A DNA stretch of 63,985 nt, filler included, from Candidatus Limnocylindrales bacterium (GCA_035559535.1; 3 parts of 3 records of this genome joined end to end with filler, not necessarily neighbours in it); one strand, 5' to 3'. Positions 29,427-55,600 are shown, counted from the first letter of the whole stretch. A program made the numbers and translations. The notes: generated by a model from the letters alone, not told the origin.

Positions 29427-29978
29427 TCAAGAGGCTCTGTAGATCCTGGTCATTTCTCCATAGCAGGTTTCACAAACTCCGTGCGTCAACATCGGCAGAG
29501 AAGTACTTTCGAAAAGCCGCAAATGCCTGACAGCCTCTTCCACCTCCATCCAGGTACCTTCTACATTAATTTTCTTACACCAACTGCACATCCGCAGGAA
29601 CTTCTCCGAATAAACTGCCTGAGATTCGAGCAGAGGTTGATGCTGTCGGTGTTCTATGGCCAACGTCCGTATCCGGAACTCAACCGTGGCTCCCTCAGCA
29701 GGAAATATTCGCATCTCCATCAGTCGTCGGCAACTGGGTGAGTCACACCGAAAACGAAATCCCATCACACGATGATTCCGGATTTGTGTTAAGATGTCAT
29801 GGTAAAGCTGACATGTGGTAGAGTCAACGATGAAGTCCCATAACGAGCGATGGAGTATGTTGGCCGATGTGACCTTCCATCCCCCATTAGCCAGGGCAAA
29901 TCGATCCCACTCCTCGTTTGTGAAAACGATCTCGTCCCGACTGTTCACCCGATAGATAATGTCTCCGGTACTTTCCAT
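29427..29978 (-). CDS. Hypothetical protein: PAS-like domain plus CxxC...HGxCxxC motif
   Basis: I...N..W..FA..N...G.SLWD; C-terminal CSWCKKI...W...LTHGVCETC. Confidence 0.65.
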   Translation of the reverse strand: MESTGDIIYRVNSRDEIVFTNEEWDRFALANGGWKVTSANILHRSLWDFIVDSTTCQLYHDILTQIRNHRVMGFRFRCDSPSCRRLMEMRIFPAEGATVEFRIRTLAIEHRQHQPLLESQAVYSEKFLRMCSWCKKINVEGTWMEVEEAVRHLRLFESTSLPMLTHGVCETCYGEMTRIYRAS

Positions 29979-30454
29979 ATCTCCTTGCTGACCTTTATTT
30001 CCTGGGATTAGGTAGGGACTTTATGGTTCCTTTCCTCCCTAAGAACGGCTCGTGAAAATTTGCCTTCAAGGTTTTACCACCCTTGCTCCTTAGCTGTAGG
30101 GTTGTGTAGGATCATTTGGGTATGATAACGTCAACTACCTCTAACCATGCCGGGCCGCCAGGAATTCCCTCTGTAATCGCTCAACCGCTGACGCTCCAAT
30201 TGTAGGACGAACCAGGAAGTAGCTCTCCTTGTCTTTAAGCGGCCAATCAGAGTAGGGTACCTCCTCCCGGTAATAAAAATATTCCCAAAGAATCGCCTTC
30301 CAGCTTATGCAGCGGACAAGCATCACGTGGCATTCTGTCCCGTTCATCGTGTCCATAGATCAAGTAGCAAGGCTCGCAATTGAGCAAGATTCCCTCAGTA
30401 TAAAATAATAGTTTAATTACTTACACCTCTGTTGTCCATATTTAGTTCCTTTGT

Positions 30455-31012
30455 CTATGGACGAGGTACCTCATACCATAGCGTTACCAGCGGATCGCCA
30501 TCCCGAGCTGTAACCGATATTAACCGTAGGGGAGGGGTTGTGATCGGGCGTGGCAGGAGAGGTGCCCCATTGTCCAGGGTCACGGAAACGATGGTAACAA
30601 TCATCTCGTCGAGTAGACCGTGATCGTAGAACTGGCCGACCAACGCCCCACCACCGACAAGCCATATGTTCTTATCACTTGCCCCTGTGATCATCTGCCA
30701 GTGCACTGGCCTCACGTCCCCACGGGCGAATTCAATGTTGGCACCGTGAATTGTGGGAAGTGTACAGGAAGTTAAGACCCAGACCGGTTGTTCGTAAGGC
30801 CAGGGCTTTGGTTGTTGAGAATTGGGTTGGATATGATGATCCTGGATCCATCAGTAGGTGGTTGCTCCCATGGCAATCGCACCCACTTTGCAGATAAAGG
30901 CTTGATAGTCGGACCCTGTTCCTTCACCGAACTGCAATAACCAGTCGAGGGAATTCTATGGGTTCGAGATAAACCCATCCAGACTGGAGGCAACATAATA
31001 TTGAGTTTTCAC
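30455..31012 (-). pseudogene. Dihydrofolate reductase/RibD C-terminal family pseudogene
   Basis: GTG start with SD AGGAG; YYVASSLDGFI, MGATTY, IWLVGGG.L..QF...GLLDE in one frame broken by in-frame TAG and TGA. Confidence 0.85.
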
Positions 31013-31236
31013 GATCAAATCTCTCCTAAATGTGCTAACGCCTTACGTAACCGGGGCATATAGACCTTTTAAATTACCTGTTCAATTTCTAGTTACCTGA
31101 ATAATTTACTATCCTCCAACCTTTTTGCCAAAGTATGGGGACGATGATCTGGATATTTAGCTTGTCGGTGTACGACTTGCATTCTCGTATTCCTACGTCT
31201 TATTTCACAAACATAGCACTTGATCTCTTCCTTCTG

Positions 31237-31296
31237 GCACAATGCCCAGGTTCAACAACCACACTTTACATAGTTTGTTGCAACGTTTGGTTAGGT
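31237..31296 (-). mobile_element. Degenerate integron attC-like site
   Basis: ACCTAAC-CAAACGTTGCAACAAAC...GTTGTTGAACCTGGGC-ATTGTGC just after a cassette stop codon. Confidence 0.6.
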
Positions 31297-31310
31297 AGCC
31301 GACACCTTGT

Positions 31311-31624
31311 TTACATAAGTTCCGGTTGGGGGTCAGCGCCGGAGGCATCAAGGAAAAATGTGATGACTTCCTCATAAGGAGATGTACCTATGTTCACTGC
31401 GCAATGACAGCATGGTCCGGCTTGTCCCAGTCCGTCATGCTAGAATAGACCGGAACCAGGGTGTGCTCATCGGTATCCTGAAACTCGATGCGGAGTTGTT
31501 CACCGCGCACGGCGACCGTAAAGCGATTGCAGGAGTCCGTGCACCACGGCATCGCCTCACCGGGTTCAAGGGGGAGCCTACGAATCGTAAGATCATCTCG
31601 TTTCGTGATGATTTCCGTTCGCAT
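31311..31624 (-). pseudogene. Frameshifted cupin-like gene (cassette)
   Basis: RRL.LEPGEAMPW...F.V..RG in one frame, continuing as H.AVNIGTSPYEEVITFFLD...PQP in another. Confidence 0.6.
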
Positions 31625-32114
31625 TTTGTGCCCTTTTTACCTCTGGGCAGACTGGTACCTCCACTAGTTTGGGAAGCGGGTGACACGGTGGGTTCACACA
31701 ACAGGGAGGGTAAGCAGAGGCATCAGCTAAGCACTTATCTTCTTGCAAGGTTCTAACTACGAGTAAGATTGCTTGCTTTATACAAGCTCGAACTAAGCCA
31801 GCTGTACCAACTATACATAGGAGACCAACGACCAACATGAGATAACGAGGTTAGCTTTCAAAAACCAAATGAATCGGAATCATGTAAAGGAACGGAAAGC
31901 TCAGTAAAACATATTTAACGCTCTTCGGCCAAATCAGGTGGTGTCGAAGCAGACTTATCGCGGCTAGAATCTACTGGATAACCCAGCAGACATTACTAAT
32001 CTGAATTAATATACTTATTCTGAATCAGACAATAAAATCACAATAAAATAATGATGAAGGTAAGCAATATTACAGCAAGAAACCATAATATTTGTGGTTT
32101 CATTAAGGCTAAGA

Positions 32115-32207
32115 TTCCTAATAAAATACCTGACGCAGACGCACGAGAAAATACTAAACATTCAAGACCATGCCTCGTGCGCGCGTCTGGTTGTATCCTA
32201 TTAGGAA
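32115..32207 (-). mobile_element. attC-like imperfect palindrome
   Basis: TTCCTAATA...GACGC..GCACGAG / CTCGTGC..GCGTC...TATTAGGAA, 40 nt downstream of ORF 32247-32582. Confidence 0.5.
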
Positions 32208-32246
32208 ACAATTAATAAGGGATATCCTTTATCTTATCGAAATCGA

Positions 32247-32582
32247 TCAGCCTGCTTTTTTCATTTCGATATCCCCATCTTTAGTAACGGAAACTTGAAT
32301 GTCTCCTCCAACACCCTTATCAGAGCCGTCTAGGAAAATGATCTCATTGGAGTTACCCTCCCATTGACCATGAATCTTCCAATCAACATCCCATATGTGA
32401 CACATGCCTTTGATAGTGCAGAGGATAAGGGGAAGATCTTTATGCCAAGAAATCCAAAGTCCAGGTTTGGTATTTTCAGTGTGCTTTGCTTTAATCCAAA
32501 AGCTATTTCCGATGTTCTCTGAATTGAAGACGATGATCGAATGGTCAGATTCATTCCTGAAAGTTTTAATGTTAGTAGGCAT
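32247..32582 (-). CDS. Small hypothetical beta-rich protein (probable gene cassette)
   Basis: Strong SD AGGAGG, intact 111-aa ORF, AT-rich, flanked by attC-like sites. Confidence 0.65.
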   Translation of the reverse strand: MPTNIKTFRNESDHSIIVFNSENIGNSFWIKAKHTENTKPGLWISWHKDLPLILCTIKGMCHIWDVDWKIHGQWEGNSNEIIFLDGSDKGVGGDIQVSVTKDGDIEMKKAG

Positions 32583-33071
32583 ATTAACCTCCTAAAAAAG
32601 TTGTTTATCTCATTGGTCAAAGTTCTAAGCTATCCAGATGGGTACTAAGGTGGTGTTGGTATCATATCTCACCCCCCTTCCTCCGAGCATGAACCTAACG
32701 GCGTGATAATTATCTGGAGTGCGAACTGTATTACTTTATTTGGGCAACAACTGGCCTATGCTTTGTTAGTCTAGTTCGGAGTACTTTAAGTTTCTGAAGC
32801 CAGATTGGCTACGAATGGTTCGAGTATTTTGTGGGTCCCGCCTCATGCTGACTAATCCAAAGACTTTGTCCTTAGACGGCATTTAGCTGGCTAATTTTTT
32901 TAGTTTACCCTATACCTCTTTCCAGGGGGAATAAAGCAAAAATAAGTCCTACCCCTAATCTTATCACTGGATAAGGCTATCTAGAAATATTGGGGGCTGA
33001 TTCTACTTAAGGGAAGGCTACTTGTCAAGTAAAAATTGCGAGATCAGCTAAGATCCCTGGGATCAAACCCT

Positions 33072-33788
33072 TCAACCGATCAGGGATAGCCAGGGCTGCC
33101 AACCGCTACACCAACTCACAGCACCGATCAATGCCGCACGATCCTCCATTGTGTCGGTACTCCGGCATTCCCAATGGAATGAGCGGGTATACTGACCTAT
33201 GTGTTCGGTGATGTATTGAACGAGCGTCGGGTGCTCCCTAAGCTTTGCCGTACCGAGGATGAGCTCCTCGTGCAGATGGACTCGACAGCGTGGACGTGTT
33301 TCATCTTGGGCGCAACGTCCACAAACACTCTTACGCCAATAGAAACTTGTCGTTTCAGCGAAAGCTCGTATCTCGGTAAGGTCTCTGCCTTGCTCGAACA
33401 TTTCGCGGGAGGCCATACCACGAGAAGTTGAGCTATAACCTAACTCACACATAAGGCACGGTCCGGTATTCCGGAGGCGGTAGACAACCCGAATTTCTTG
33501 CAGCGGTCCATGGAGGTTGAAGGCAGCAAGCGCACGCTCCGTCAAATCCTCATAGAGAAGAGTAGGCCCTTGCAGGTAACCGTGGCGAAACGCCGCATCT
33601 ACCGACAGGAAGGTAAAGATGTGCCGCTGGCACATCCCCCAGGCTCGACACAACCGCGCCCGCGTATCGGGGACCATGATACTCCCCTGTATAAAGAACC
33701 AGAGGAAGTGAACCTCCCCAGGGGAGGGTCGTAGATCCTCCAGCCGAGACGGCGAACTACCTAAAATGGCACGCGGAGAGATGTCCAT
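33072..33788 (-). CDS. Cys/His-rich hypothetical protein (DUF6062-like)
   Basis: R..L..AWGMC.RH, LY, CLMC, CGRC, C..H pattern suggests metal binding. Confidence 0.6.
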   Translation of the reverse strand: MDISPRAILGSSPSRLEDLRPSPGEVHFLWFFIQGSIMVPDTRARLCRAWGMCQRHIFTFLSVDAAFRHGYLQGPTLLYEDLTERALAAFNLHGPLQEIRVVYRLRNTGPCLMCELGYSSTSRGMASREMFEQGRDLTEIRAFAETTSFYWRKSVCGRCAQDETRPRCRVHLHEELILGTAKLREHPTLVQYITEHIGQYTRSFHWECRSTDTMEDRAALIGAVSWCSGWQPWLSLIG

Positions 33789-33819
33789 TTTTATTTTCCA
33801 GCTTGGGCTCGATTTCTAT

Positions 33820-34080
33820 ACATTTGCGTTCGGAACTGAAGGGAATTTCTTCCAGCCGCGGATACCTGAGTTCTAAATCGGCTAAGGTCCATTCCCCCTT
33901 TTCAGCAGCCACGACTAGGGCTCCTTCTGTGGGATCTCCTTCAATGTCCCAACCCTCTTCTCACTGGACCAGATGGGCGTTATTACAAAGCCCGGCAATG
34001 AGTAGGAGCCGTTTAAGATGGGGATCCGGAGGGGAAAAACTCTTTTGATTCCACCGGAATTCCCCTTGAGGCTCTTACCC
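33820..34080 (-). pseudogene. Fragment of a cation-transporting P-type ATPase (N domain)
   Basis: G*EPQGEF...LCNNAHL.Q*EEGWDIEGDPTEGALVVAAEKG...YPRLEEIPFSSERK with two in-frame stops; not in the ORF track. Confidence 0.8.
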
Positions 34081-34193
34081 CTTTACACGTTCTTAAGTTA
34101 ACCATCTTACTCCTAACCCTCCCTCGTCTTACAAGGAACTTTGACTGCAACGTTCCTTCCCCTGCCGGGGCGAGGGAGGATCAGACTTTCTGT

Positions 34194-34463
34194 TTATTCG
34201 CCTCCCCGCTGGGTAAAGTTTTTTACGAACTCCTCTGCATTTTGCTCCAAAACCTCATCGATTTGATCCATGAGATCTTCCAGATTTTTCTTGATTTCCT
34301 TTCCCTTTTCCGATACGTTTCCACCGGATCTTTCTTCCTTTTCCTTTTGGGGTTCTGTGGGCCTGACAACCCTTTTCTGCTGGTCCACGGTGGCATAGGA
34401 AATTCCCAAAAGTAAATGGGCCTCGGTTTGAAGGGAATCGTGAAATAAATGTTTGAATATCAT
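34194..34463 (-). CDS. pup: Prokaryotic ubiquitin-like protein Pup with a 25-aa N-terminal extension
   Basis: C-terminal DLMDQIDEVLEQNAEEFVKNFTQRGGE is the Pup signature; SD AAAGGAGGT 8 nt before the ATG. Confidence 0.9.
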   Translation of the reverse strand: MIFKHLFHDSLQTEAHLLLGISYATVDQQKRVVRPTEPQKEKEERSGGNVSEKGKEIKKNLEDLMDQIDEVLEQNAEEFVKNFTQRGGE

Positions 34464-34500
34464 CTTAACTTACCTCCTTTCGCCCTTTGAGCCATCTTTG

Positions 34501-34528
34501 GCAGGGGCACGTTGCCACGTGCCCTTAC
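34501..34528. repeat. REP-like palindrome
   Basis: GCAGGGGCACGT-TGCC-ACGTGCCCTTAC, resembling GTAG-type REP hairpins. Confidence 0.5.
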
Positions 34529-34608
34529 TATTTTCTCGCTTTCCTTACGGCTAAAAGGGTCTTGTAAAGCCGGATAAATCCTGCTCTGATTCCAGGTTGT
34601 ACAAGACA

Positions 34609-35778
34609 TCAAATTTTATAAATAACCAGAGCTCCCAGGATACTTAACACCGCCGTATATCCAAAACCTATTGCCGGAGAGACTGTGCTCCATAAAAATC
34701 CTACCACCAGGCTTGAAACAAAGTCCCCAATCCCATTGACAGTAGCTAACATGCCATATCCGGTTCCCCGCACCTCTTCGGGGAGAAGCTCAGCGGCTGT
34801 AGATCCTTCCAGGGCATCTTCCACGGCAATGTAAATCCCTCCTAAAACAAAAAGGATCAGCAAATAGCCGAAGCCCGGCGGAGCCAGGATAAACCCGATA
34901 CCCATAACCCCGGAAAGGAGGTATCCCAAAGCCAGGAGCTCTCGTCGACCCAGTTTATCGCTGAGGGCTCCCACGGGATAGGCCGATAGGGCATAAAGAA
35001 TATTATGGATCACATAAAGGGAAATGGCCAGACTTTCGGCTTTAGCCATTCCATAAATCGGGGTTAGAACCTGGGTGGCCCGTAGGATCAATAAGGTATG
35101 GGCGAAATCTCCCATCCCGAAGATGAAAACGCCTGCTAAAAACAGCTTAAAGCTTCGGGGCGTATCCGTTATGTTCTTGAAAAATTTCATGGCGTGGTTA
35201 GGAGCCCGGGATCTATCCTTGACTAAAAAAGCAATGGCGGCTGCAGAAAGCAGTCCGGGGACCAGGGTTATCACAAAAATAGTCCTTAAACTCAAGTATT
35301 TAATAAAAATAAACGCCAGAAACGGGCCCAACACCGCACCGGCAGTATCCATAGCCCGATGAAATCCAAAGGCGCGGCCATAAGCTTCCGGGGGTACAGA
35401 ATCGGCCAGCATGGCGTCCCGGACCGGTCCTCGCAGCCCTCGACCCATCCAGCCAACTACCCGTCCAATGAGGACGTGCTGCCATAGGGTCGCCAGGGCA
35501 AAGGTTGCTTTAGATACTCCGGTGATTACATACCCGGCCACGGCCAAAGCCTTCCGTTTTCCGATCCGATCGCTGTACCACCCCGACCAGAGCTTGACAA
35601 AGCTCGAGGCTGCGTCGGCTACCCCCTCAATGATACCCAGGGCAGCAGCCGAAGCCCCAATGGTTGCTAGGAACATGGGTAAAATGGCCGTGGCCATTTC
35701 ATGACCGGCATCGCTGAGGAAACTCGCCAACCCCATCCCTAACACATTTCTATTGAACCAGTTCTTCTTCTCTGTCAT
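34609..35778 (-). CDS. MFS transporter
   Basis: About 12 TM helices, G..SDR.GKR motif A, GRAFG.HRAMD, G.LSD..GRR. Confidence 0.9.
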   Translation of the reverse strand: MTEKKNWFNRNVLGMGLASFLSDAGHEMATAILPMFLATIGASAAALGIIEGVADAASSFVKLWSGWYSDRIGKRKALAVAGYVITGVSKATFALATLWQHVLIGRVVGWMGRGLRGPVRDAMLADSVPPEAYGRAFGFHRAMDTAGAVLGPFLAFIFIKYLSLRTIFVITLVPGLLSAAAIAFLVKDRSRAPNHAMKFFKNITDTPRSFKLFLAGVFIFGMGDFAHTLLILRATQVLTPIYGMAKAESLAISLYVIHNILYALSAYPVGALSDKLGRRELLALGYLLSGVMGIGFILAPPGFGYLLILFVLGGIYIAVEDALEGSTAAELLPEEVRGTGYGMLATVNGIGDFVSSLVVGFLWSTVSPAIGFGYTAVLSILGALVIYKI

Positions 35779-36262
35779 ATGCCCTCCCGGGCTCCTTGAG
35801 CGTGAGTAAGGCTTCGCCGGCTAATCCTTTCACATAAGTACTGGGATCCTTGAGCATCCTTTCCAGATCCTCCCGGATCTCCGGATCACCTCTGGTTGCT
35901 AAAGCTCTGACGGCACTCCCACGAACTAAAAAAGAAGGATTATCCAGCAGTTTCGTTAAAACCAGAATGGTTTCTTGATCCCCTATTTTCCCCAAGGCCT
36001 CTGCTATTTCCTCCATTAAAAAATAATCCTTCGTCCCATCCAGAAGATCTAACCGCGGTCCCCTGGCTTCTTGACCCCTCTTTTCTCCAAGAAGATAAAC
36101 CGTACACCTCTGAATCGTCGGGTCCGGATGATGAAGAGCCCGAATGAGCTTCTGGATAGGGCTCTGTCGGTCCAAAGCAGAAAGATCGGCTTTGCAACGA
36201 GGGCATAGAGAGAGATCTTTTGTAAATTCTTCCCAACACGAAGGGCAAAAAAATCTCCTCAT
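35750..36262 (-). CDS. Zinc-ribbon plus HEAT (PBS-lyase-like) repeat protein
   Basis: CPSC..CPRC, then L.HPD...R..LG, AEALGKIGD, VR.SAV.AL repeats; overlaps both neighbours. Confidence 0.8.
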   Translation of the reverse strand: MRRFFCPSCWEEFTKDLSLCPRCKADLSALDRQSPIQKLIRALHHPDPTIQRCTVYLLGEKRGQEARGPRLDLLDGTKDYFLMEEIAEALGKIGDQETILVLTKLLDNPSFLVRGSAVRALATRGDPEIREDLERMLKDPSTYVKGLAGEALLTLKEPGRAYDREEELVQ

Positions 36263-38052
36263 AAGGTTTCTCCCTCCCGGCCTTCCAGGGTCTTTTTTAA
36301 GTTCAGTAGCTTTTTCTTAAGGGTTTGAATCGAGGCTAGTTTTTCATCCAACTCCCTCACCCGCCGTTCCACTTCTCCCTGGCTTTGAACCTTCATTTCC
36401 ATAGCCCTCTTCAAGGCATTTTGAATATTCTCTCGGGTCATCCGAATCTGCCAATCTAATTTATCTTTAAGTTCTCGTACACTACCCTCCATCCGCTCCA
36501 GAAAGTCGTACCGTACCCGCCCCGCGTTCCGGTCCAGCTCGACCGCCACCTTGTTTAACATTTCCCCTAATACGAATTTTCGAAAGTAGGGTTTTGGCAT
36601 CAACAGGGGAACATTATCCAAACCCCATCCCAGCAATTCTTCGGTTTTATAGTATAACCGACTTTGGGAAATTAAGGTTTCCACTCCTTCCAGGTTTTCC
36701 ATGGACAGGTCAAACAGGTTCGCCGAAATTTGCCGAATCTGTTGAACGAGATGGTTTGCTCGGGCCGAAAAACGGGAGGCCATTTTCTCAAAACCCCGCC
36801 GCATTTTCTCATCTTCTGAGGGGAGCCAGGCCTGGAAGGCCTCTTCAATGGATCGATGAAGACAATGATCTAAAGCTTGAACCAGAGCCTTCTTATCGTC
36901 TTTTAAATGGGCTTCATAACACCTTTGAATCGATTCTTTAATGAGGGGCACCTGCTCCAGTTTGAACCACTCCAGGTCCCTATTTAAATCTTCCAGAAGC
37001 TTTTCGACCTCTCCCCGAATAAGTATTTCCATATCTTCCTGCTCTTGCTGAATGATTTGGGATTGGTAGTTGAATTGGTTGATCTTATGCTCCAGATCCA
37101 ACACCGGGGTTTCAACAGCCTTTTTCTCCAGTTTAAAGACCATTTCCGCTTCCCCGACCACCCTTAAACCCTGGTTTAGGGACGATTCTAAGAAGATTTT
37201 TCCTTTACCCTGGAGGAGAAATTGGGATAAGGCTGCCTCAAAACCAGGAAGAAGGCTGGCCTCTATCTTTTCCAGGGAACCTCTTAATTTCCCCTCCAGG
37301 GCCAATTTAGCCGAAATAGGGTAGATCTTCACATCGGAGAGACCCAGATGGGTCTGGATGGCTTTCTTTGAAAATTCCAGGGACTGATCCCTTTCCGACT
37401 CCTCCACCTGATCGATCTTATTCTGGAGAAAGAAAATTTTTCCGATAAACGCTTTAACTTGCTTTAAGAAATCTAATTCTACCTGCGTCAGGGGTGGATC
37501 GACCCCCATTAAAAAAATAGCCGCATCGGCCCGGGGGAGATAGTTCTGGGTAATAACCGTGTTATCCACATAAATAGAACTGATTCCAGGGGTATCCACC
37601 AGGATGACCCCTTCCTGAAGATAGGGAGAAGGATAAAAAACCTCAATCCGTTCCACATTCTTTTCGTTATGGGGATTCCAGGACTCTGTGACATACCCGG
37701 CAATTTCCTCAAAGGGGATCTCTTTCTTGGTCCCTTCCTTAAACCGTACCGTTATTTTCAAGGTCTTCCCGTATCTGATTAACGTAATGATGGAGGTAAG
37801 GGGAATAATGGAAGTGGGTAACAGACTCACCCCCAGAAGGCTGTTAATAAGCGTGGATTTGCCCCGATTGAAATGTCCCAGGATGACCAGGTTAAATTGA
37901 TCCTCCCGGAGTTTCAAGATCAAGGCCTGAAGATCCGTTTCAATCTTTGAATACCCTCCCCCACCCAGGAGTCCTCGAAGAACTTCCAGGTCGGTCAGGA
38001 TGGATTCTTTAAGCGTTGTATAATTGCCAAGGAGAATGGACATATCCCTCAT
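36259..38052 (-). CDS. Bacterial dynamin-like GTPase
   Basis: G1 GHFNRGKST, G2 P.T, G3 DTPG, G4 NKID, ISA, long helical stalk. Confidence 0.9.
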   Translation of the reverse strand: MRDMSILLGNYTTLKESILTDLEVLRGLLGGGGYSKIETDLQALILKLREDQFNLVILGHFNRGKSTLINSLLGVSLLPTSIIPLTSIITLIRYGKTLKITVRFKEGTKKEIPFEEIAGYVTESWNPHNEKNVERIEVFYPSPYLQEGVILVDTPGISSIYVDNTVITQNYLPRADAAIFLMGVDPPLTQVELDFLKQVKAFIGKIFFLQNKIDQVEESERDQSLEFSKKAIQTHLGLSDVKIYPISAKLALEGKLRGSLEKIEASLLPGFEAALSQFLLQGKGKIFLESSLNQGLRVVGEAEMVFKLEKKAVETPVLDLEHKINQFNYQSQIIQQEQEDMEILIRGEVEKLLEDLNRDLEWFKLEQVPLIKESIQRCYEAHLKDDKKALVQALDHCLHRSIEEAFQAWLPSEDEKMRRGFEKMASRFSARANHLVQQIRQISANLFDLSMENLEGVETLISQSRLYYKTEELLGWGLDNVPLLMPKPYFRKFVLGEMLNKVAVELDRNAGRVRYDFLERMEGSVRELKDKLDWQIRMTRENIQNALKRAMEMKVQSQGEVERRVRELDEKLASIQTLKKKLLNLKKTLEGREGETL

Positions 38053-38163
38053 CGAAGTTGAAACATCGCCCTGTTCTGAAATAGACCCGGACAGTCTTTT
38101 TCTTGAAAGGAATCGTAAGCCAGCCCAGGGAACCGTTTTCCCTGTTCCGGTTATTTACCCTGC

Positions 38164-38199
38164 AAAAAAAAACCCTACCTGGGGTTTTTCCAGGTAGGG
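38164..38199 (-). terminator. Intrinsic terminator T2 in the riboswitch leader
   Basis: CCCTACCTGG-loop-CCAGGTAGGG (10 bp) followed by T9 on the minus strand. Confidence 0.85.
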
Positions 38200-38203
38200 G
38201 ATT

Positions 38204-38281
38204 AAAAAATATAACTCCTACCTTCAACCCGGTAAACTTTGAATACAAAAGAAACTTTCTCGGATCGAATGTAGGAGTTAT
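38204..38281 (-). terminator. Riboswitch expression-platform hairpin T1 overlapping the aptamer 3' end
   Basis: ATAACTCCTAC (38281-38271) pairs with GTAGGAGTTAT (38221-38211), followed by ATTTTTT. Confidence 0.7.
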
Positions 38282-38327
38282 CAGCCGTTTTAATCTCCAA
38301 CGGCGGTTCTGGTGAACTCCATCACCT
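38271..38327 (-). ncRNA. Fluoride riboswitch (crcB motif)
   Basis: GGTGATGGAGTTCACC-AGAACCGCCGTT...AACGGCTGATAACTCCTAC matches the GGnGAUGGnGUUCnCC..AACCGC..GCUGAUrACUCCUAC consensus. Confidence 0.92.
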
Positions 38328-38334
38328 AAAAATT

Positions 38335-38363
38335 AAAATAGTATGCAGCCTCCCAAATGTCAA
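38335..38363 (-). promoter_or_regulatory. Sigma70-type promoter driving the fluoride riboswitch leader
   Basis: TTGACA-17 nt-TATTTT, placing +1 at about 38328, the aptamer 5' end. Confidence 0.8.
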
Positions 38364-38429
38364 ATTAAAATTAAAGCCTGTAACAAAAAAGTCTTGTTTA
38401 ATTCGTTTAACTCTGATAAAAACCTATCT

Positions 38430-50932: not shown

Positions 50933-53900
50933 TTATAAGTTTGCTTTAACAGTGGCTTTTCGATATCTTAACATCCCCGTTCCTGCCGGTATCAGTCGTC
51001 CTACGATTACATTCTCCTTTAACCCTCTCAGGTCATCTACTTTGCCGGAGATGGCGGCCTCTGTAAGTACCCGGGTCGTTTCCTGGAATGAGGCTGCTGA
51101 AATGAAGCTATCTGTACTTAGGCTGGCCACTGTAATTCCCAAGAGTTGGGGTCGTCCTCTGGCAGGACGGCCACCGGCTTTGATAACCCGCTCATTTTCT
51201 TCTTCAAAGGCAAATCGATCCACGTACTCATCCAGTAGAAATTCCGTATCTCCGGGGTCTACTATTTTGACCCTCCGTAACATTTGCCGAACGATGATCT
51301 CGATATGCTTATCGTTGATATTTACACCCTGGAGTTTGTAAACTTCCTGAATCGATTTAACCAGATATTTTTGGACCTCTTTAACACCCAGGACTCGTAA
51401 AATGTCATGGGGATTGGAAGGGCCATCCATCAAAGCTTCTCCGGCCTTGACCCGATCACCTTCTCGAACACTGATATGGACTCCTCTTGGAATGGAGTAT
51501 TCTTTCTCATCTCCACTATCATTACGTACAATCACTTTCCGGCTTCCTCGTGAGATACCTCCAAAGCTCACCACGCCATCAATCTCACTGATAATGGCGT
51601 ATTCCTTTGGTTTTCTGGCTTCAAAGAGTTCCACCACACGGGGCAAACCACCTGTAATATCCTTGGTTTTAGTGGTATCTTTGGGAATTTTGGCTATAAT
51701 ATCGCCTGCAGAAACCACCTGTCCATCTGCTACCTGCAAATGAGCTCCAATGGGAAGAGGAATCTTATAAGGTACCAGGGCCAGAACATCCCCTTGTTTC
51801 ACCCGTTGTCCGTTTTTAACTTCTAACTTGAGATAAGAATCGTGTTCCAGACTGAGAACTTTTTTCTGATCATTATCTCCCAAAATGGAAATAATGATCA
51901 TTCGATCCTTCTCCTGTTTTTCTATTTTGACTACTCCATCGATTTCGGCAATTCGGGGTAACATCACATCTTTGATACGTACCTTGGGTTGAACATCTTC
52001 CTTAAGGGGGATTCCCACCTTAGGGGTTGTTAAACCGGTCACTTCATCCAGATCTTCTTTAACGGTTACATCTTCAAAGGTGACAACACCCGGATATTCT
52101 GTAATGATCAGCGCAGAGTAAGGATCCCATTCAGCCAGGGTCTGATTTTTTTCCACTCGCTGTCCATCTCGAACCTTCAATACGGCTCCGTAGGGAAGAG
52201 GATGTCGTTCCCTTTCTCGACCTTTCTCGTCTAAAACGGCGATATATCCCACACCCGTTTTGCTCAGTACTACCAGATCTCCTTCTTTTCGGGCAACGGT
52301 TTTTAAATCAGAATGGAACTTTACGGTCCCGCTATTTTTAGCCGTTAAAACGGATCTTTCTACCACGATGGCGGTCCCTCCGATATGGAAGGTTCTCATG
52401 GTCAACTGGGTTCCTGGTTCTCCTATGGATTGAGCAGCAATGATTCCGACGGCTTCGCCGATATCGACTAACCTTCGAGTGGCTAAATTCCTGCCGTAGC
52501 AGAGGACACAAACCCCTCGTTTAGCCTGGCAGGTTAAGACCGATCGTATTTTAACACTTACCACCCCGGCCTGTTCTATTTTCTCGGCGTAGTCCTCATT
52601 GATTTCTTCGTTGGCTTTGACGATGACCTCTCCGGTATGAGGATCTTTGATATCATCTAGGGCAACGCGGCCTAAGATACGATCTTTCAAAGGCTCGATC
52701 ACATCGCCGCCTTCAATAATGGCCTCGATATCAATCCCATCCAGAGTCTGGCAATCATACTGGGAAACCGTCACATCCTGGGCGACATCTACGAGGCGTC
52801 GGGTTAAATAACCCGAATCTGCAGTTTTAAGAGCAGTATCGGCTAATCCTTTTCTTGCTCCATGGGTAGAGATAAAGTACTGGAGCACTGTAAGGCCTTC
52901 CCGGAAGTTAGCCTTAATGGGAGTTTCGATAATTTCTCCGGAAGGTTTCGCCATAAGACCTCGCATTCCAGCTAATTGACGTATTTGTTGACGGCTTCCA
53001 CGGGATCCCGAATCCGCCATCATATAAATAGGATTAAACTCTCCTTCACTGGGAGTCTTATGGCCGGCATACCTTCGTTCATCAATTTCCCCTTTTCTTC
53101 CCAGAAGGATCCCTTCCTGCTCCCGTTTCTCCAATTCCTCGAATATTTCTTTGGCAACTTCATCGGTGGTGCGGGACCAGATATCGATAACTTTATTATA
53201 ACGCTCTCCGTTGGTAATGATTCCACTCCGATATTGCTGTTCGACTTTCATCACTTCTTCTTCGGCCCGTTCAATCAACTCTTGCTTCTTGGGAGGAATA
53301 CGGATATCGTCGATACTAATGGAGATCCCAGACAGCGTGGCGTAGGTGAAACCCAAAGTTTTCAATCGATCTAGTACTTCTACGGTCGTCTGATTCCCAT
53401 ACTTCAGGTGAATATCCGCTACCAGCCGCTCCAACTTCTTCTTGGTCATATGTTCATTCAAGAAAGGATACCCTTGGGGAAGGATTTCGTTGAAGAGGAC
53501 GCGACCTACCGTTGTCGTTATGGAGCTTCCGTTAAGTCTTAATCTTATTTTCTCCAGGAGTCCCACTTTTTTATCATCGAAAGCGATTCGGACCTCTTGA
53601 GCATTGGCGAAAAATCTTAAGCTTTTTATACGATACACATCGGTCAGGTCTTTAACTTCGAAACCATTTATAGAGATGATTTTATCCCCAACGGCTAATC
53701 CGGCTCTTTCTGCGGGGCTCTTCTCAACAACTTTAAATACAGAAACTCCTCCCTTTGAAGTCCTATGCCCGTTACCTGAAGCGCTTTCAACGGCATCCAT
53801 CAATTTCACGGCCTCACTCCGAAGGCCCAGTCCTATTTTTGGAAAAAGGATCACATTCTCCTCCTCTTCCCGAGAGAGTCCGAATTCTGCCAGGAGTTCT

Positions 53901-55600
53901 GGGGTTGGGTAATTAAAATCCTCGGGGAAGTTTCCCAGTTTTATCTTTAGAATTGTTTGTTTTTCTCCCTTCTTATCTTCAGCTTCGTCGGAGGGATGGA
54001 TAACCGTTATCTCATCGGGAAGCTCCTGACATTCTTTGGTTAAGTAGTAGATCCCCAGAACCATGTCCTGGCTGGGAAGAGCCAGGGGGAGTCCATTGGC
54101 CGGGGACAGGAGATTGCTGGTTGCCATCATGAGCACTTTGGCTTCAATTTGGGCCTCAATGGAAAGGGGTACATGGACTGCCATTTGATCCCCATCAAAA
54201 TCGGCATTAAATGCCGCACAAACCAGAGGATGGATCTTGATGGCTTTTCCCTCCACCAGGACCGGTTGAAAGGCTTGGATACCGGCGCGATGAAGGGTAG
54301 GGGCCCGGTTAAGTAATACCGGATGTTCTTTAATAACCTCTTCTAAAACATCCCACACCTCCGGGGCTTCCCTCTCCACCATCTTCTGGGCACTCTTCAT
54401 GGTGGTGGTATAACCATGTTCTTGAAGTTTATTAAATATAAAAGGCTTAAAGAGCTCCAAAGCCATTTTCTTAGGAAGTCCACATTGGTATAACTTGAGT
54501 TCTGGCCCTACAACAATAACCGAACGTCCAGAATAATCCACCCGTTTACCTAGGAGGTTTTGTCTAAATCGCCCCTGTTTACCTTTGAGCATATCACTCA
54601 AAGATTTAAGCGGTCGATTCTTGGAGCCTCGAAGAACCCTTCCGCGTCTTCCGTTATCAAACAAGGCGTCTACCGACTCCTGGAGCATTCTTTTTTCATT
54701 ACGGATGATAACTTCTGGCGCTTTAAGTTCTTGAAGCCTTTTCAACCGATTATTTCGGTTAATAACCCTCCGATAGAGATCATTCAGATCAGAAGTAGCA
54801 AACCGACCCCCATCCAGAGGGACCAGAGGCCTGAGCTCGGGCGGCAGTACAGGAATCACTTCCAGAATCATTTCTTCGGGTTTACAACCCGATTTTCGAA
54901 AAGCTTCTACCACTTTAAGTCGTTTGGTAATTTTTTTCTTTTTCTGAACGGAAGATTCTTCTTTAAGTTGCGCCCGGAGTTCCTTAGCTAACTCTTCGAT
55001 GTTGACACGTTTCAAAAGATCCCGAATAGCCTCGGCTCCAATTCCAGCTTTAAATTTCCCGGCATAATCGGGATTTTCCATCAGCTCACGATAACTTTCT
55101 TCTGATAAGAGTTGTCGTTCCTCAAGGTCGGTATCTCCAGGATCAATCACCACATAATTTTCAAAATAAAGAATCGTTTCTAGTTTTTTTAACGGAATAT
55201 CCAGTAGCTGTCCGATTCTACTGGGAAGGCCCTTAAAAAACCAGATATGAGAAACCGGGCAGGCGAGTTCTATATGGCCCAGTCTTTCCCGCCTCACCCT
55301 GGACTGAGTTACTTCAACCCCACATTTTTCGCACACTACTCCCCGATAGCGAATTCTCTTGTACTTTCCGCACAGGCATTCCCAGTCTTTAATGGGACCG
55401 AAGATCTTGGCGCAGAATAATCCATCCCGCTCCGGTTTAAAAGTTCGATAATTAATCGTTTCAGACTTTTTTACTTCCCCATGAGACCATTCTCGAATCT
55501 TGTCCGGAGAGGCTAAAGATATTTTAATGGCATCAAAATTCAGGCTACTATGAGTTCCTCTAAAAAGTTCTAATACGTCTTGCATTCTTTTTAGCCACAC
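50933..55600 (-). CDS. rpoC: RNA polymerase beta-prime subunit with a PDZ-like insertion
   Basis: NADFDGD, Zn-finger Cys residues, QLTMRTFH; start may be ATG 55585. Confidence 0.98.

What the first reader, a model, noticed from the sequence alone, without database searches (positions are those of the whole stretch)
33072..38363. Fluoride-riboswitch-controlled dynamin / Zn-HEAT / MFS / Pup unit
Seen: a TTGACA-17-TATTTT promoter, a consensus crcB aptamer at +1, terminators, then three overlapping genes (dynamin-like GTPase, Zn-ribbon HEAT protein, MFS). Pup, a P-type ATPase relic and a Cys/His-rich ORF follow on the same strand, with no clear U-tailed terminator between the MFS and pup. No Fluc/CrcB or CLC-F exporter is present in the unit. 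Known: fluoride riboswitches usually control Fluc/CLC-F exporters or fluoride-sensitive enzymes, and bacterial dynamin-like proteins remodel or repair membranes. Inference: an undescribed fluoride-stress module combining membrane remodelling, a candidate new fluoride exporter (the MFS) and possibly protein tagging.
Basis: partly seen in the sequence, partly recalled or inferred. Interest (0 to 1): 0.88.

Follow-up and report, generated by a model that had tools for sequence, protein, structure and literature searches.

The report
Fluoride-switched bacterial dynamin operon
A fluoride-sensing RNA switch heads an operon for a dynamin-like membrane GTPase, a small zinc-ribbon HEAT protein and a transporter, and the same switch-dynamin pairing recurs in unrelated bacteria, pointing to a branch of the microbial fluoride response that I found in no paper I could search.

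Summary
Rfam places a fluoride riboswitch at 38265-38335(-) (55.5 bits, cut-off 34). It sits behind a TTGACA-17-TATTTT site and before two terminator hairpins. Next come overlapping genes for a BDLP/IniA-type dynamin-like GTPase, a Zn-ribbon HEAT protein and a NorA-like MFS. A Pup gene, an 85-codon P-type ATPase relic and a 238-aa Cys/His ORF follow on the same strand.

The key test was recurrence. Of 13 other loci encoding a homologue of this dynamin, 6 have a fluoride aptamer directly upstream. Two more have one 2.3-3.3 kb upstream in the same gene string. One has a weak match and 4 have none. The linked loci fall in three separate clades of the family.

An MFS recurs in 5 of the 13. The dyn-HEAT-MFS-Pup order is kept in three lineages. 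The Cys/His ORF belongs to a real family distantly related to DUF6062.

Membrane repair, fluoride export by the MFS and fluoride-induced pupylation remain inferences. A close relative's genome carries a separate riboswitch-CrcB operon. No searched paper holds both "fluoride riboswitch" and "dynamin". This scan noted the same link before on other DNA (56 notes).

The parts
38335..38363 (-). sigma-70-like promoter TTGACA-17-TATTTT
   Evidence: 10 of 12 matches. Conserved in L001. Consensus match only; such sites are not enriched over shuffles in this region.
38265..38335 (-). fluoride riboswitch aptamer (crcB motif, RF01734)
   Evidence: 55.5 bits, gathering score 34, E 1.1e-12. The P1 pair changes U-A to C-G in L001. 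P1 and the pseudoknot covary across 14 aligned aptamers.
38203..38282 (-). terminator T1: the aptamer's 3' strand (38282-38271) pairs with 38221-38211, followed by U6. This is the switch-controlled terminator.
   Evidence: minimum-free-energy structures. Identical in L001.
38164..38199 (-). terminator T2: 10-bp G+C-rich hairpin followed by U9. Its 5' strand CCUACCU can also pair with AGGUAGG of T1's 3' strand.
   Evidence: top terminator hit. (alternative pairing: energies tie in the window, T2 is preferred in L001). Conserved in L001.
36259..38052 (-). dynamin-like GTPase, 597 aa (probable true start 38043)
   Evidence: Model pLDDT 80.4. Best structural matches are IniA 6j72 (E 4.6e-21) and BDLP 2j69 (TMq 0.74). 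P-loop GHFNRGKST, DTPG and NKID are present.
35750..36262 (-). Zn-ribbon (CPxCW...CPxC) plus HEAT-repeat protein, 170 aa
   Evidence: Family of 20 proteins with the ribbon cysteines conserved. Also follows the dynamin gene in L001 and L011.
34609..35778 (-). MFS transporter, 389 aa, DHA1/NorA-like
   Evidence: 96% identical to the L001 copy. 56% identical to the MFS of the dynamin-toroid-MFS string in L013.
34503..34526 (-). 8-bp palindromic hairpin in the MFS-pup spacer, without a U tail on the minus strand
   Evidence: Absent from L001 through a 21-nt indel, so it is not a conserved terminator.
34194..34463 (-). Pup paralogue, 89 aa, C-terminal GGE, with an AGGAGG Shine-Dalgarno sequence
   Evidence: It is a second Pup copy in G001, in addition to the canonical dop-pup-prcB copy. 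It holds the same position in L001 and L011.
33826..34080 (-). relic of a P-type cation ATPase gene (residues 368-452 of 925)
   Evidence: The gene is intact in L001, and present up to the contig end in L011 and in the long X3 contig.
33072..33788 (-). 238-aa Cys/His-rich protein, a distant relative of DUF6062
   Evidence: 233 representatives at E <= 1e-3; invariant C53, C111, C114, C159, R169, H171, W226, G229. for the DUF6062 relation. Model pLDDT 93.8.
33040..33057 (-). terminator-like hairpin just after the last ORF; probable 3' end of the unit
   Evidence: It is followed by a TTGACA-17-TAGAAT site at 33028-33000.

Best explanation
This is a chromosomal operon switched on by fluoride. Shown here: a full-scoring fluoride aptamer lies just downstream of a promoter-like site. 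Its 3' strand is also one arm of a U-tailed terminator (T1), the classical transcriptional ON design. The genes behind it encode a BDLP/IniA-fold dynamin-like GTPase, a clade-specific Zn-ribbon HEAT protein and a NorA-like MFS, with overlapping reading frames. Homologues of this dynamin sit behind fluoride aptamers in distant lineages. Inferred: when cytoplasmic fluoride rises, the ligand-bound pseudoknot withholds T1's 5' arm. T1's freed 3' arm (AGGUAGG) can then capture the 5' arm of the second terminator T2 as it is made, so the polymerase passes both and transcribes dyn-HEAT-MFS. It probably runs on through pup to the Cys/His gene. The dynamin is the conserved effector. Most likely it binds the cytoplasmic membrane through the tip of its helical stalk and remodels or reseals it under fluoride stress. 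That would preserve the barrier and the pH gradient that govern HF entry. The HEAT protein would act as its adaptor in this subclade. The MFS would be an efflux partner with an unknown substrate (fluoride itself or a stress-related solute). The extra ligation-ready Pup would raise the capacity to tag damaged proteins for the proteasome. My odds: regulatory link of riboswitch to dyn-HEAT-MFS about 0.85; membrane repair as the role about 0.35; pup and the Cys/His gene on the same transcript about 0.5.
For: Aptamer: 55.5 bits. T1 overlaps the aptamer, and the leader folds at z = -5.26. Leader, promoter and both terminators are conserved in L001 with a compensatory P1 change. Recurrence over the 13 other dynamin loci with upstream sequence: an aptamer lies directly upstream on the same strand in L001 (57.7 bits), L002 (32.2), L003 (32.9), L012 (26.2), L017 (32.4) and L018 (29.8). 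In L002, L003 and L012 it ends about 20 nt before the start codon. It heads the same-strand gene string in G005 (tandem, 53.6 bits, 2.3 kb upstream) and G009 (49.6 bits, 3.3 kb upstream). The sub-threshold hits show covarying P1 and pseudoknot. Linked loci occupy three well-supported clades of the family tree. G001 has only 2 aptamers in 5.5 Mb, so adjacency by chance is negligible. Fold: IniA and BDLP are the best matches, and a low-confidence, partly hydrophobic tip lies at residues 453-481. The order dyn-HEAT-MFS-Pup is kept in the window, L001 and L011. The operon Pups are closer to one another than to G001's canonical Pup. All 8 genomes of that phylum have Pup-ligase homologues. No promoter-like site and no U-tailed terminator lies between the MFS and pup.
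Against: Four of the 13 loci (L013, L014, L015 and the G001 paralogue L022) have no aptamer in the sequence available. L016 has only a 20.1-bit match (E 0.38). Five of the six adjacent aptamers score below Rfam's gathering score. T2 is a strong terminator with no obvious ligand dependence. With the aptamer sequestered, the anti-T2 fold and the T2 fold tie in the window (-31.6 against -31.5 kcal/mol), and L001 prefers T2. The relay is therefore a kinetic idea only. No expression data exist. Nothing here shows membrane binding, GTPase activity, transport of fluoride or pupylation. The tail of the unit is decaying: the ATPase is lost here, and the Cys/His core is deleted in L001 and in the long X3 contig. 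That speaks against a tightly selected six-gene module. The bona fide DUF6062 genes of this phylum are not near any aptamer that I found.
Confidence: 0.55

Rival explanations
1. Compensation for a poisoned enzyme. Dynamin-type GTPases could be trapped by Mg/Al-fluoride transition-state mimics. The switch would then supply extra (or more tolerant) GTPase, as fluoride riboswitches do for enolase and pyrophosphatase. No dedicated membrane-defence role would be needed.
For: In related loci the dynamin shares riboswitch-led strings with Mg-dependent phosphoryl-transfer enzymes. These are enolase and phosphoglycerate mutase (G005, G009), MutS-type ATPases (G005, G009), and pyrophosphatase and enolase behind a second aptamer 7 kb away in L002. 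In L015 enolase directly follows the dynamin. A P-type ATPase, a classical metal-fluoride target (recalled), was part of the ancestral array. G001 has a riboswitch-less paralogue at 49% identity.
Against: G005 and G009 each show only the riboswitch-linked copy at E <= 1e-40. G002 shows only one copy at E <= 1e-30. An ON switch in front of the sole copy does not fit topping up a housekeeping enzyme. Fluoride sensitivity of bacterial dynamins was not tested here.
Confidence: 0.2
2. The transporter is the point. The MFS is a new fluoride (or HF-related) efflux system, and the dynamin and HEAT proteins only help to insert, cluster or protect it.
For: An MFS lies in the dynamin gene string in L001, L013, L014 and G005. 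In G009 an MFS has its own aptamer directly upstream. The family is conserved at 59-67% identity in many lineages. Its nearest solved relative is the exporter NorA. A non-canonical transporter (BenE-I) can raise fluoride tolerance in a crcB mutant (PMC13104614, abstract read).
Against: L002, L003 and L012 have the aptamer and the dynamin but no adjacent MFS. The riboswitch-led MFS of G009 is only 29% identical to this one. The closest homologues in five other genomes of the phylum (33-36%) lie elsewhere. The close relative G001 already has a riboswitch-CrcB operon. No MFS fluoride exporter is known to me (recalled).
Confidence: 0.15
3. Leftover linkage. T2 stops essentially all transcripts, so the aptamer plus T1/T2 is a short stand-alone or decaying unit. 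The dynamin operon would be driven from an unrecognised promoter, independently of fluoride.
For: T2 is a strong, apparently unconditional terminator conserved in L001. Equilibrium folding does not favour bypassing it. The 120-nt spacer after T2 differs by about 70 nt between the window and L001.
Against: No promoter-like site was found between T2 and the start codon. The aptamer is under selection, as shown by the compensatory P1 change. The same gene family is directly aptamer-led, about 20 nt from the start codon, in L002, L003 and L012.
Confidence: 0.07

Closest known systems
Classical fluoride-riboswitch operons (crcB/Fluc, eriC-F/CLC-F, mutS, enolase, pyrophosphatase; the Bacillus cereus crcB transcriptional ON switch)
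   Same: Same RNA family (RF01734) and the same logic: a terminator overlaps the aptamer's 3' strand. Passages of Weinberg 2010 (PMC2864571) describe overlapping terminators and mutS and ion-transport genes downstream. Relatives of this organism have such strings (CrcB, Na+/H+ exchanger, MutS, enolase).
   Different: The effector genes are different: a dynamin-like GTPase, a Zn-ribbon HEAT protein and an MFS, with no Fluc or CLC-F in the unit. There is also a second, stand-alone terminator behind the first. Dynamin is not named in the passages that I read. No paper in the library holds 'fluoride riboswitch' together with 'dynamin'. I could not open Baker 2012, and supplements are closed, so gene lists there may bear on this.
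IniA of the mycobacterial iniBAC operon, and BDLP of Nostoc punctiforme
   Same: These are the best sequence and structure matches: 2j68 E 7.7e-23 and 6j72 E 6.3e-15 by sequence; 6j72 E 4.6e-21 and 2j69 TMq 0.74 by fold. Both have one G domain plus a folded-back helical stalk. IniA is likewise a stress-induced dynamin (the PDB entry calls it isoniazid-inducible).
   Different: Only 16-18% identity over the structural alignment. The inducer here is fluoride sensed by an RNA, not cell-wall drugs. The partners (HEAT, MFS) differ from IniB and IniC. Membrane fission or fusion activity is untested.
NorA and other DHA1 drug/H+ antiporters of the MFS
   Same: Full-length sequence match (residues 16-368, E 2.2e-10) and MFS_1 domain architecture.
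   Different: The relation is distant. This protein belongs to its own uncharacterised family, conserved at 59-67% identity. Substrate unknown.
Pup-proteasome system (dop-pup-prcBA-pafA)
   Same: The Pup domain scores over both curated cut-offs and ends in GGE. The related genome G001 has the canonical locus and two Pup-ligase homologues.
   Different: This is a second Pup copy placed behind a fluoride-led operon, away from dop, pafA and the proteasome genes. Among the 8 genomes of the phylum, only G001 has it.
Pfam DUF6062 (PF19538), an uncharacterised Cys/His family
   Same: A profile of the 238-aa ORF's family picks out the same three genes that PF19538 hits in G005, G006 and G008. 2 of 39 family members reach PF19538 weakly.
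   Different: The window protein itself gives no PF19538 match, even at E <= 10. No solved fold resembles its confident model.

Membership tests
Fluoride riboswitch (Rfam RF01734) | Covariance-model score at or above the gathering score over the whole model | tested here: met
   55.5 bits against 34; model positions 1-64 of 64.
Fluoride riboswitch (Rfam RF01734) | P1 and P3 helices and the pseudoknot, with conserved core nucleotides | tested here: met
   cmscan alignment. Compensatory P1 change against L001. P1 and pseudoknot covary across 14 aptamers.
Fluoride riboswitch (Rfam RF01734) | Lies in a 5' leader, with an expression platform that competes with the aptamer | tested here: met
   T1 uses the aptamer's 3' strand and is followed by U6. 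The next gene on the strand is the dynamin.
Fluoride riboswitch (Rfam RF01734) | Binds fluoride and changes gene expression | not testable with these tools
   Needs in-line probing, a transcription assay or a reporter assay.
Bacterial dynamin-like proteins (BDLP / IniA type) | Dynamin-type G domain with G1-G4 motifs | tested here: met
   PF00350 100.2 bits against 27. GHFNRGKST, DTPG and NKID are present and are invariant columns in 38 homologues.
Bacterial dynamin-like proteins (BDLP / IniA type) | Helical neck and trunk folded back on the G domain, with a membrane-contacting tip | tested here: met
   Model pLDDT 80.4 with five long helices. Full-length matches to IniA and BDLP, TMq 0.63-0.74. 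The tip (residues 453-481) has low confidence, so membrane contact itself is only inferred.
Bacterial dynamin-like proteins (BDLP / IniA type) | GTP-dependent membrane binding or remodelling | not testable with these tools
   Needs a GTPase assay and liposome assays.
Major facilitator superfamily, DHA1-like exporters | MFS_1 domain over the cut-off and a full-length match to a solved DHA1 member | tested here: met
   PF07690 141.2 bits against 33.4. NorA E 2.2e-10 over residues 16-368.
Fluoride exporters (Fluc/CrcB, CLC-F) | CrcB or CLC-type domain in the unit | tested here: not met
   No such domain in the unit's proteins. PF02537 is found elsewhere in the relative G001.
Pup (prokaryotic ubiquitin-like protein) | Pup domain over the curated cut-offs and a C-terminal GGQ or GGE | tested here: met
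   PF05639 58.1 bits against 27. TIGR03687 48.9 against 41.45. Ends in GGE.
Pup (prokaryotic ubiquitin-like protein) | Ligase PafA (and Dop) present in the same genome | tested here: inconclusive
   The window's genome is not held. All 8 genomes of the phylum of the 92%-identical relative have 2-3 Pup-ligase matches.
DUF6062 (PF19538) | Match to the Pfam model at its cut-off | tested here: not met
   The window protein has no match even at E <= 10. 2 of 39 relatives match weakly, best E 2.1e-4. A profile-level link exists: a distant relative, not a member.
HEAT-repeat proteins | HEAT repeats over the Pfam cut-off | tested here: met
   PF13646 70 bits against 27.7. PF03130 35.9 against 20.9.

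The most novel reading that the evidence does not exclude
A dynamin-like GTPase is the core of a widespread, undescribed second arm of the prokaryotic fluoride response. That arm would act on the membrane and on protein quality control rather than on ion export. Around the dynamin sits a recurring set of accessory families: a Zn-ribbon HEAT adaptor, a dedicated MFS family, a ligation-ready Pup paralogue and DUF6062-like zinc proteins. This window would then be one of the few places where all five lie in one riboswitch-led array. In this reading fluoride damages membrane integrity and proteostasis directly. One paper reports fluoride inhibition of the Clp protease in Streptococcus mutans (PMC12700350; search listing and start of abstract only). 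The operon would repair both kinds of damage.
Probability: 0.3. Interest if true: 0.85.

Novelty: new variant of a known kind. Interest (0 to 1): 0.72.

Why it matters
Fluoride resistance in microbes is currently explained by two exporter families plus extra copies of a few fluoride-sensitive enzymes. A membrane-remodelling GTPase that is repeatedly wired to the fluoride sensor, in distant lineages, implies a target or defence layer that the current picture lacks. It would also give bacterial dynamins, whose physiological triggers are mostly unknown, a defined and experimentally tractable inducer. The riboswitch acts as a free functional label for four poorly characterised families: this dynamin clade, the Zn-ribbon HEAT proteins, this MFS family and the DUF6062-like proteins. 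The tandem-terminator leader is a compact test case for how one aptamer might control two terminators.

Tried and rejected
1. Whole-genome searches of the window's own genome: none is held. Statements about CrcB and Pup ligases rest on the relative G001.

2. Complex prediction of the dynamin with the Zn-ribbon HEAT protein (after two queue refusals): no verdict (score 0.00, mark 0.32). It says nothing either way.

3. RNA evidence: no RNA holder is listed for 33000-38400. No statement on expression is possible.

4. Reads and contigs showed only DNA variants. X2 has near-identical pieces. One long X3 contig is L001-like. Low-depth X7 contigs cover part of the Cys/His gene, and one skips 352 nt of the HEAT gene. 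Small-share holders are not used to name a habitat.

5. Wider census. The phylum of G002 and G003 gave only the self-match (1 of 401 genomes each). I could not reach Bacillota, Desulfobacterota or Acidobacteriota genomes that hold named homologues.

6. I considered the 70-aa ORFs after the dynamin in L014 and L016 as possible Pups. They are unrelated hydrophobic peptides.

7. Equilibrium folding does not establish the anti-T2 relay.

8. Fold searches for the Cys/His protein gave no Foldseek match at E <= 0.001. The best VIA-align Z was 4.6. That is no proof of a new fold.

9. A profile of the Cys/His family found no further member in my loci. The bona fide DUF6062 genes of this phylum are not next to aptamers.

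10. I could not open Baker et al. 2012. What I say of it is recalled.

Full report
**What is there**

cmscan finds two Rfam families in the window: a tRNA, and a fluoride riboswitch at 38265-38335 on the minus strand (55.5 bits, gathering score 34, E 1.1e-12, whole model). A TTGACA-17-TATTTT site ends at 38335, so transcription would start about at the first helix of the aptamer. Promoter-like sites as a class are not enriched in this region (6 found, 9.0 +/- 3.4 expected). The site therefore counts only through its position and its conservation in a relative.

The leader folds far better than shuffles (z = -5.26, 0 of 200 as good). The aptamer's 3' strand (38282-38271) pairs with 38221-38211 in a long hairpin followed by U6. 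This is T1, the usual fluoride ON-switch design. A second hairpin, T2 (38199-38173, 10 pairs, 7 G-C, then U9), follows at once.

Behind the leader lie three overlapping genes:
- Dynamin-family GTPase, 36259-38052 (Dynamin_N 100.2 bits).
- A 170-aa protein with an N-terminal CPxCW...CPxC ribbon and HEAT repeats, 35750-36262.
- MFS transporter, 34609-35778.

Alignment with L001 suggests that the real dynamin start is ATG 38043, behind GAGGGA.

Further down the same strand lie:
- A Pup gene, 34194-34463, over both curated cut-offs, ending in GGE, with an AGGAGG ribosome-binding site.
- A fragment of a P-type ATPase gene.
- A 238-aa Cys/His-rich ORF, 33072-33788.
- A terminator-like hairpin at 33057-33040, followed by a new promoter-like site at 33028.

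The rest of the window is ordinary chromosome: a polysaccharide-synthesis cluster and the rplKAJL-rpoBC-rpsLG-fusA region. No CrcB or CLC domain appears among the ORFs that I scanned.

**Relatives of the whole array**

No genome is held for the window. A genome-collection scan with the dynamin found L001 (92% identity, an unclassified MAG, handle G001). It has the same leader, the same three genes and Pup, then an intact 925-aa P-type ATPase and a 103-aa ORF.

Nucleotide alignment and tblastn show that the window keeps only ATPase residues 368-452 (33826-34080). In L001, by contrast, the Cys/His gene has lost its 486-bp core in frame. A low-depth contig of another run covers part of that core (32109-33449). 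A 32-kb contig of a further run has the L001 form. I therefore take the window's Cys/His gene as the full version and its ATPase as the relic.

A third lineage, L011 (81% identity, contig cut inside the dynamin), has dynamin-HEAT-MFS-Pup-ATPase in the same order. So the order up to Pup is kept in three lineages, while the tail decays independently.

**Is the riboswitch-dynamin link more than local?**

I collected every locus that my scans gave: 3 from genomes, 8 from metagenome contigs and 3 new places in the 8-genome phylum of G001. L011 lacks upstream sequence, which leaves 13 loci besides the window.

- Aptamer directly upstream on the same strand, 6 loci: L001 (57.7 bits), L002 (32.2), L003 (32.9), L012 (26.2), L017 (32.4), L018 (29.8). 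Only L001 passes the gathering score. The others show the covarying P1 and pseudoknot of the family. In L002, L003 and L012 the aptamer ends about 20 nt before the start codon.
- Aptamer heading the same-strand gene string, 2 loci. In G005, tandem aptamers (53.6 bits) precede enolase, phosphoglycerate mutase, dynamin, MFS and two MutS-type genes. In G009, a five-aptamer island has one aptamer before the mutase, one before an MFS, and one before MutS-MutS-dynamin.
- Weak match, 1 locus: L016 (20.1 bits, E 0.38).
- No aptamer, 4 loci: L013, L014 (only 1 kb upstream on the contig), L015 and G001's paralogue.

That makes 8 of 13, or 9 with the weak match. G001 has two aptamers in 5.5 Mb, so chance does not explain this.

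In a maximum-likelihood tree of 19 homologues, the linked loci fall in three starred clades: window+L001; G005+G009; L002+L012. Unlinked ones are interleaved among them. The family is large: 618 proteins at E <= 0.001 among the candidates scored, some named from Thermincola, Desulfobacca, Pelotomaculum and Terriglobales. I could not sample those groups. In the phylum of G002 and G003 the gene is rare (1 of 401 genomes in each of two searches).

**The proteins**

Dynamin. The AlphaFold model (pLDDT 80.4) has a G domain and five long helices. A low-confidence, partly hydrophobic tip lies at residues 453-481. Its best structural matches are IniA and BDLP over the full length (E about 1e-21, TMq 0.63-0.74), in line with the sequence matches.

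HEAT protein. It belongs to a small family: 20 proteins including the window's own, about 165 aa, with the ribbon cysteines and a tryptophan conserved. Four of its members come from contigs of the same length as contigs holding dynamin homologues (12685, 2981, 35813 and 171913 nt). This hints at a conserved pair, but it is not proof.

MFS. It is 96% identical to the L001 copy and 56% to the MFS of a dynamin-toroid-MFS string in L013. It is 34% identical to an MFS upstream of the dynamin in L014, and 26-31% to the island MFS genes of G005 and G009. Its family is conserved at 59-67% identity in many lineages. NorA is its nearest solved relative.

Pup. All 8 genomes of the phylum have Pup-ligase homologues and a canonical Pup. 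Only G001 has a second Pup, the one in this array. The array Pups of the window, L001 and L011 resemble each other more than they resemble G001's canonical Pup. The spacer between the MFS and pup is conserved, has no promoter-like site and has no U-tailed terminator. Its one hairpin is missing in L001.

Cys/His ORF. It has 233 representative relatives (42 at E <= 1e-30). Invariant residues include C53, C111, C114, C159, R169, H171 and a GWCSGW tail. The model is very confident and all-helical (pLDDT 93.8), with no convincing solved relative. The window protein itself does not match that model, and 2 of 39 relatives do so weakly. My family profile, however, picks out exactly the three genes that PF19538 hits in this phylum. 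It is a distant relative, not a member.

**How it probably works, and what is weak**

T1 gives a standard fluoride-dependent readthrough. T2 is the puzzle. T1's 3' arm (AGGUAGG) can pair with T2's 5' arm (CCUACCU). With the aptamer held closed, the window's minimum-energy fold uses that pairing and lacks T2. But forcing T2 costs only 0.1 kcal/mol, and L001's fold keeps T2. A four-segment relay, like a trp-type attenuator (recalled), is therefore only a kinetic hypothesis.

For function, the sole firm statement is that fluoride sensing is repeatedly coupled to this dynamin. I favour membrane repair or remodelling, because of the BDLP/IniA fold and because some genomes have only the riboswitch-led copy. 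The rival is compensation for a fluoride-poisoned GTPase. It draws on the company of enolase, mutase, pyrophosphatase, MutS and a P-type ATPase. The MFS-as-exporter idea is neither supported nor excluded.

**Literature and earlier notes**

No paper in the library holds 'fluoride riboswitch' with 'dynamin' (0 papers). The 8 papers holding it with 'GTPase' are, by title and abstract start in the search listing, unrelated to this link. Passages of Weinberg 2010 (PMC2864571) and of Sherlock and Breaker 2020 (PMC7266159) list mutS, K+/Cl- transport and formate hydrogen lyase, but not dynamin. I could not open Baker 2012, and supplements are closed. This scan has 56 earlier notes in at least 42 genomes on the same link. 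I used them as leads only.

**Verdict**

This is a new variant of a known kind: a known riboswitch with an undescribed, recurrent effector.

Noticed in passing
window 50933-55600 (-): The RNA polymerase beta' gene (1555 aa) carries a PDZ-like insertion at about residues 609-657 (PDZ_6 E 7.3e-10, PDZ_2, PDZ).
   Followed up: no
L002 491-552(-)/577-638(+); L012 5218-5278(-)/5304-5366(+); L017 559-618(-)/644-700(+): Back-to-back divergent pairs of fluoride aptamers, about 25 nt apart. In L012 and L017 one member leads to the dynamin. In L002 one leads to pyrophosphatase-DUF211-...-PIF1 helicase-enolase.
   Followed up: partly
L054 (G009:C12:151500-171000) and L053 (G005:C3:628000-640000): G009 has a fluoride island with five aptamers in about 10.6 kb, two of them overlapping in tandem. 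G005 has a tandem pair. The enolase genes in both strings appear split into two ORFs.
   Followed up: partly
L055 (G001:C78:24500-31649): A riboswitch-led string: Na+/H+ exchanger, DUF190, CrcB, a double DUF190 that also gives a P-II match, a further DUF190, and two MutS domain-V genes. Three DUF190 genes surround one crcB.
   Followed up: no
L003 7899-9625 (G003): The aptamer-led dynamin homologue of this small (about 1 Mb) genome is split into ORFs of 256 and 308 aa. It is probably a broken gene.
   Followed up: no
L002 6976-7800(-); L013 7856-8689(+): A protein of about 275 aa with a prenyltransferase-like alpha-alpha toroid domain lies next to the dynamin in two loci. It takes the place of the Zn-ribbon HEAT protein.
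   Followed up: no
window 35789-36142: A low-depth contig of run X7 (depth 4.4) skips 352 nt of the HEAT gene. This may be a lineage in which that gene is deleted.
   Followed up: no
window 29978-33000: An ORF-poor stretch downstream of the unit. It is only 78.5% identical to L001 over 32416-33215, against about 90% elsewhere, and may be a zone of gene decay.
   Followed up: no
window 38058-38137: About 70-78 nt between T2 and the dynamin start are absent from L001 and from the long X3 contig.
   Followed up: partly
window 816-28059 (+): A 27-kb same-strand polysaccharide-modification cluster. It holds glycosyltransferases, several SAM methyltransferases, two radical-SAM proteins (one with a SPASM domain), a sulfotransferase and sugar-nucleotide enzymes.
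   Followed up: no
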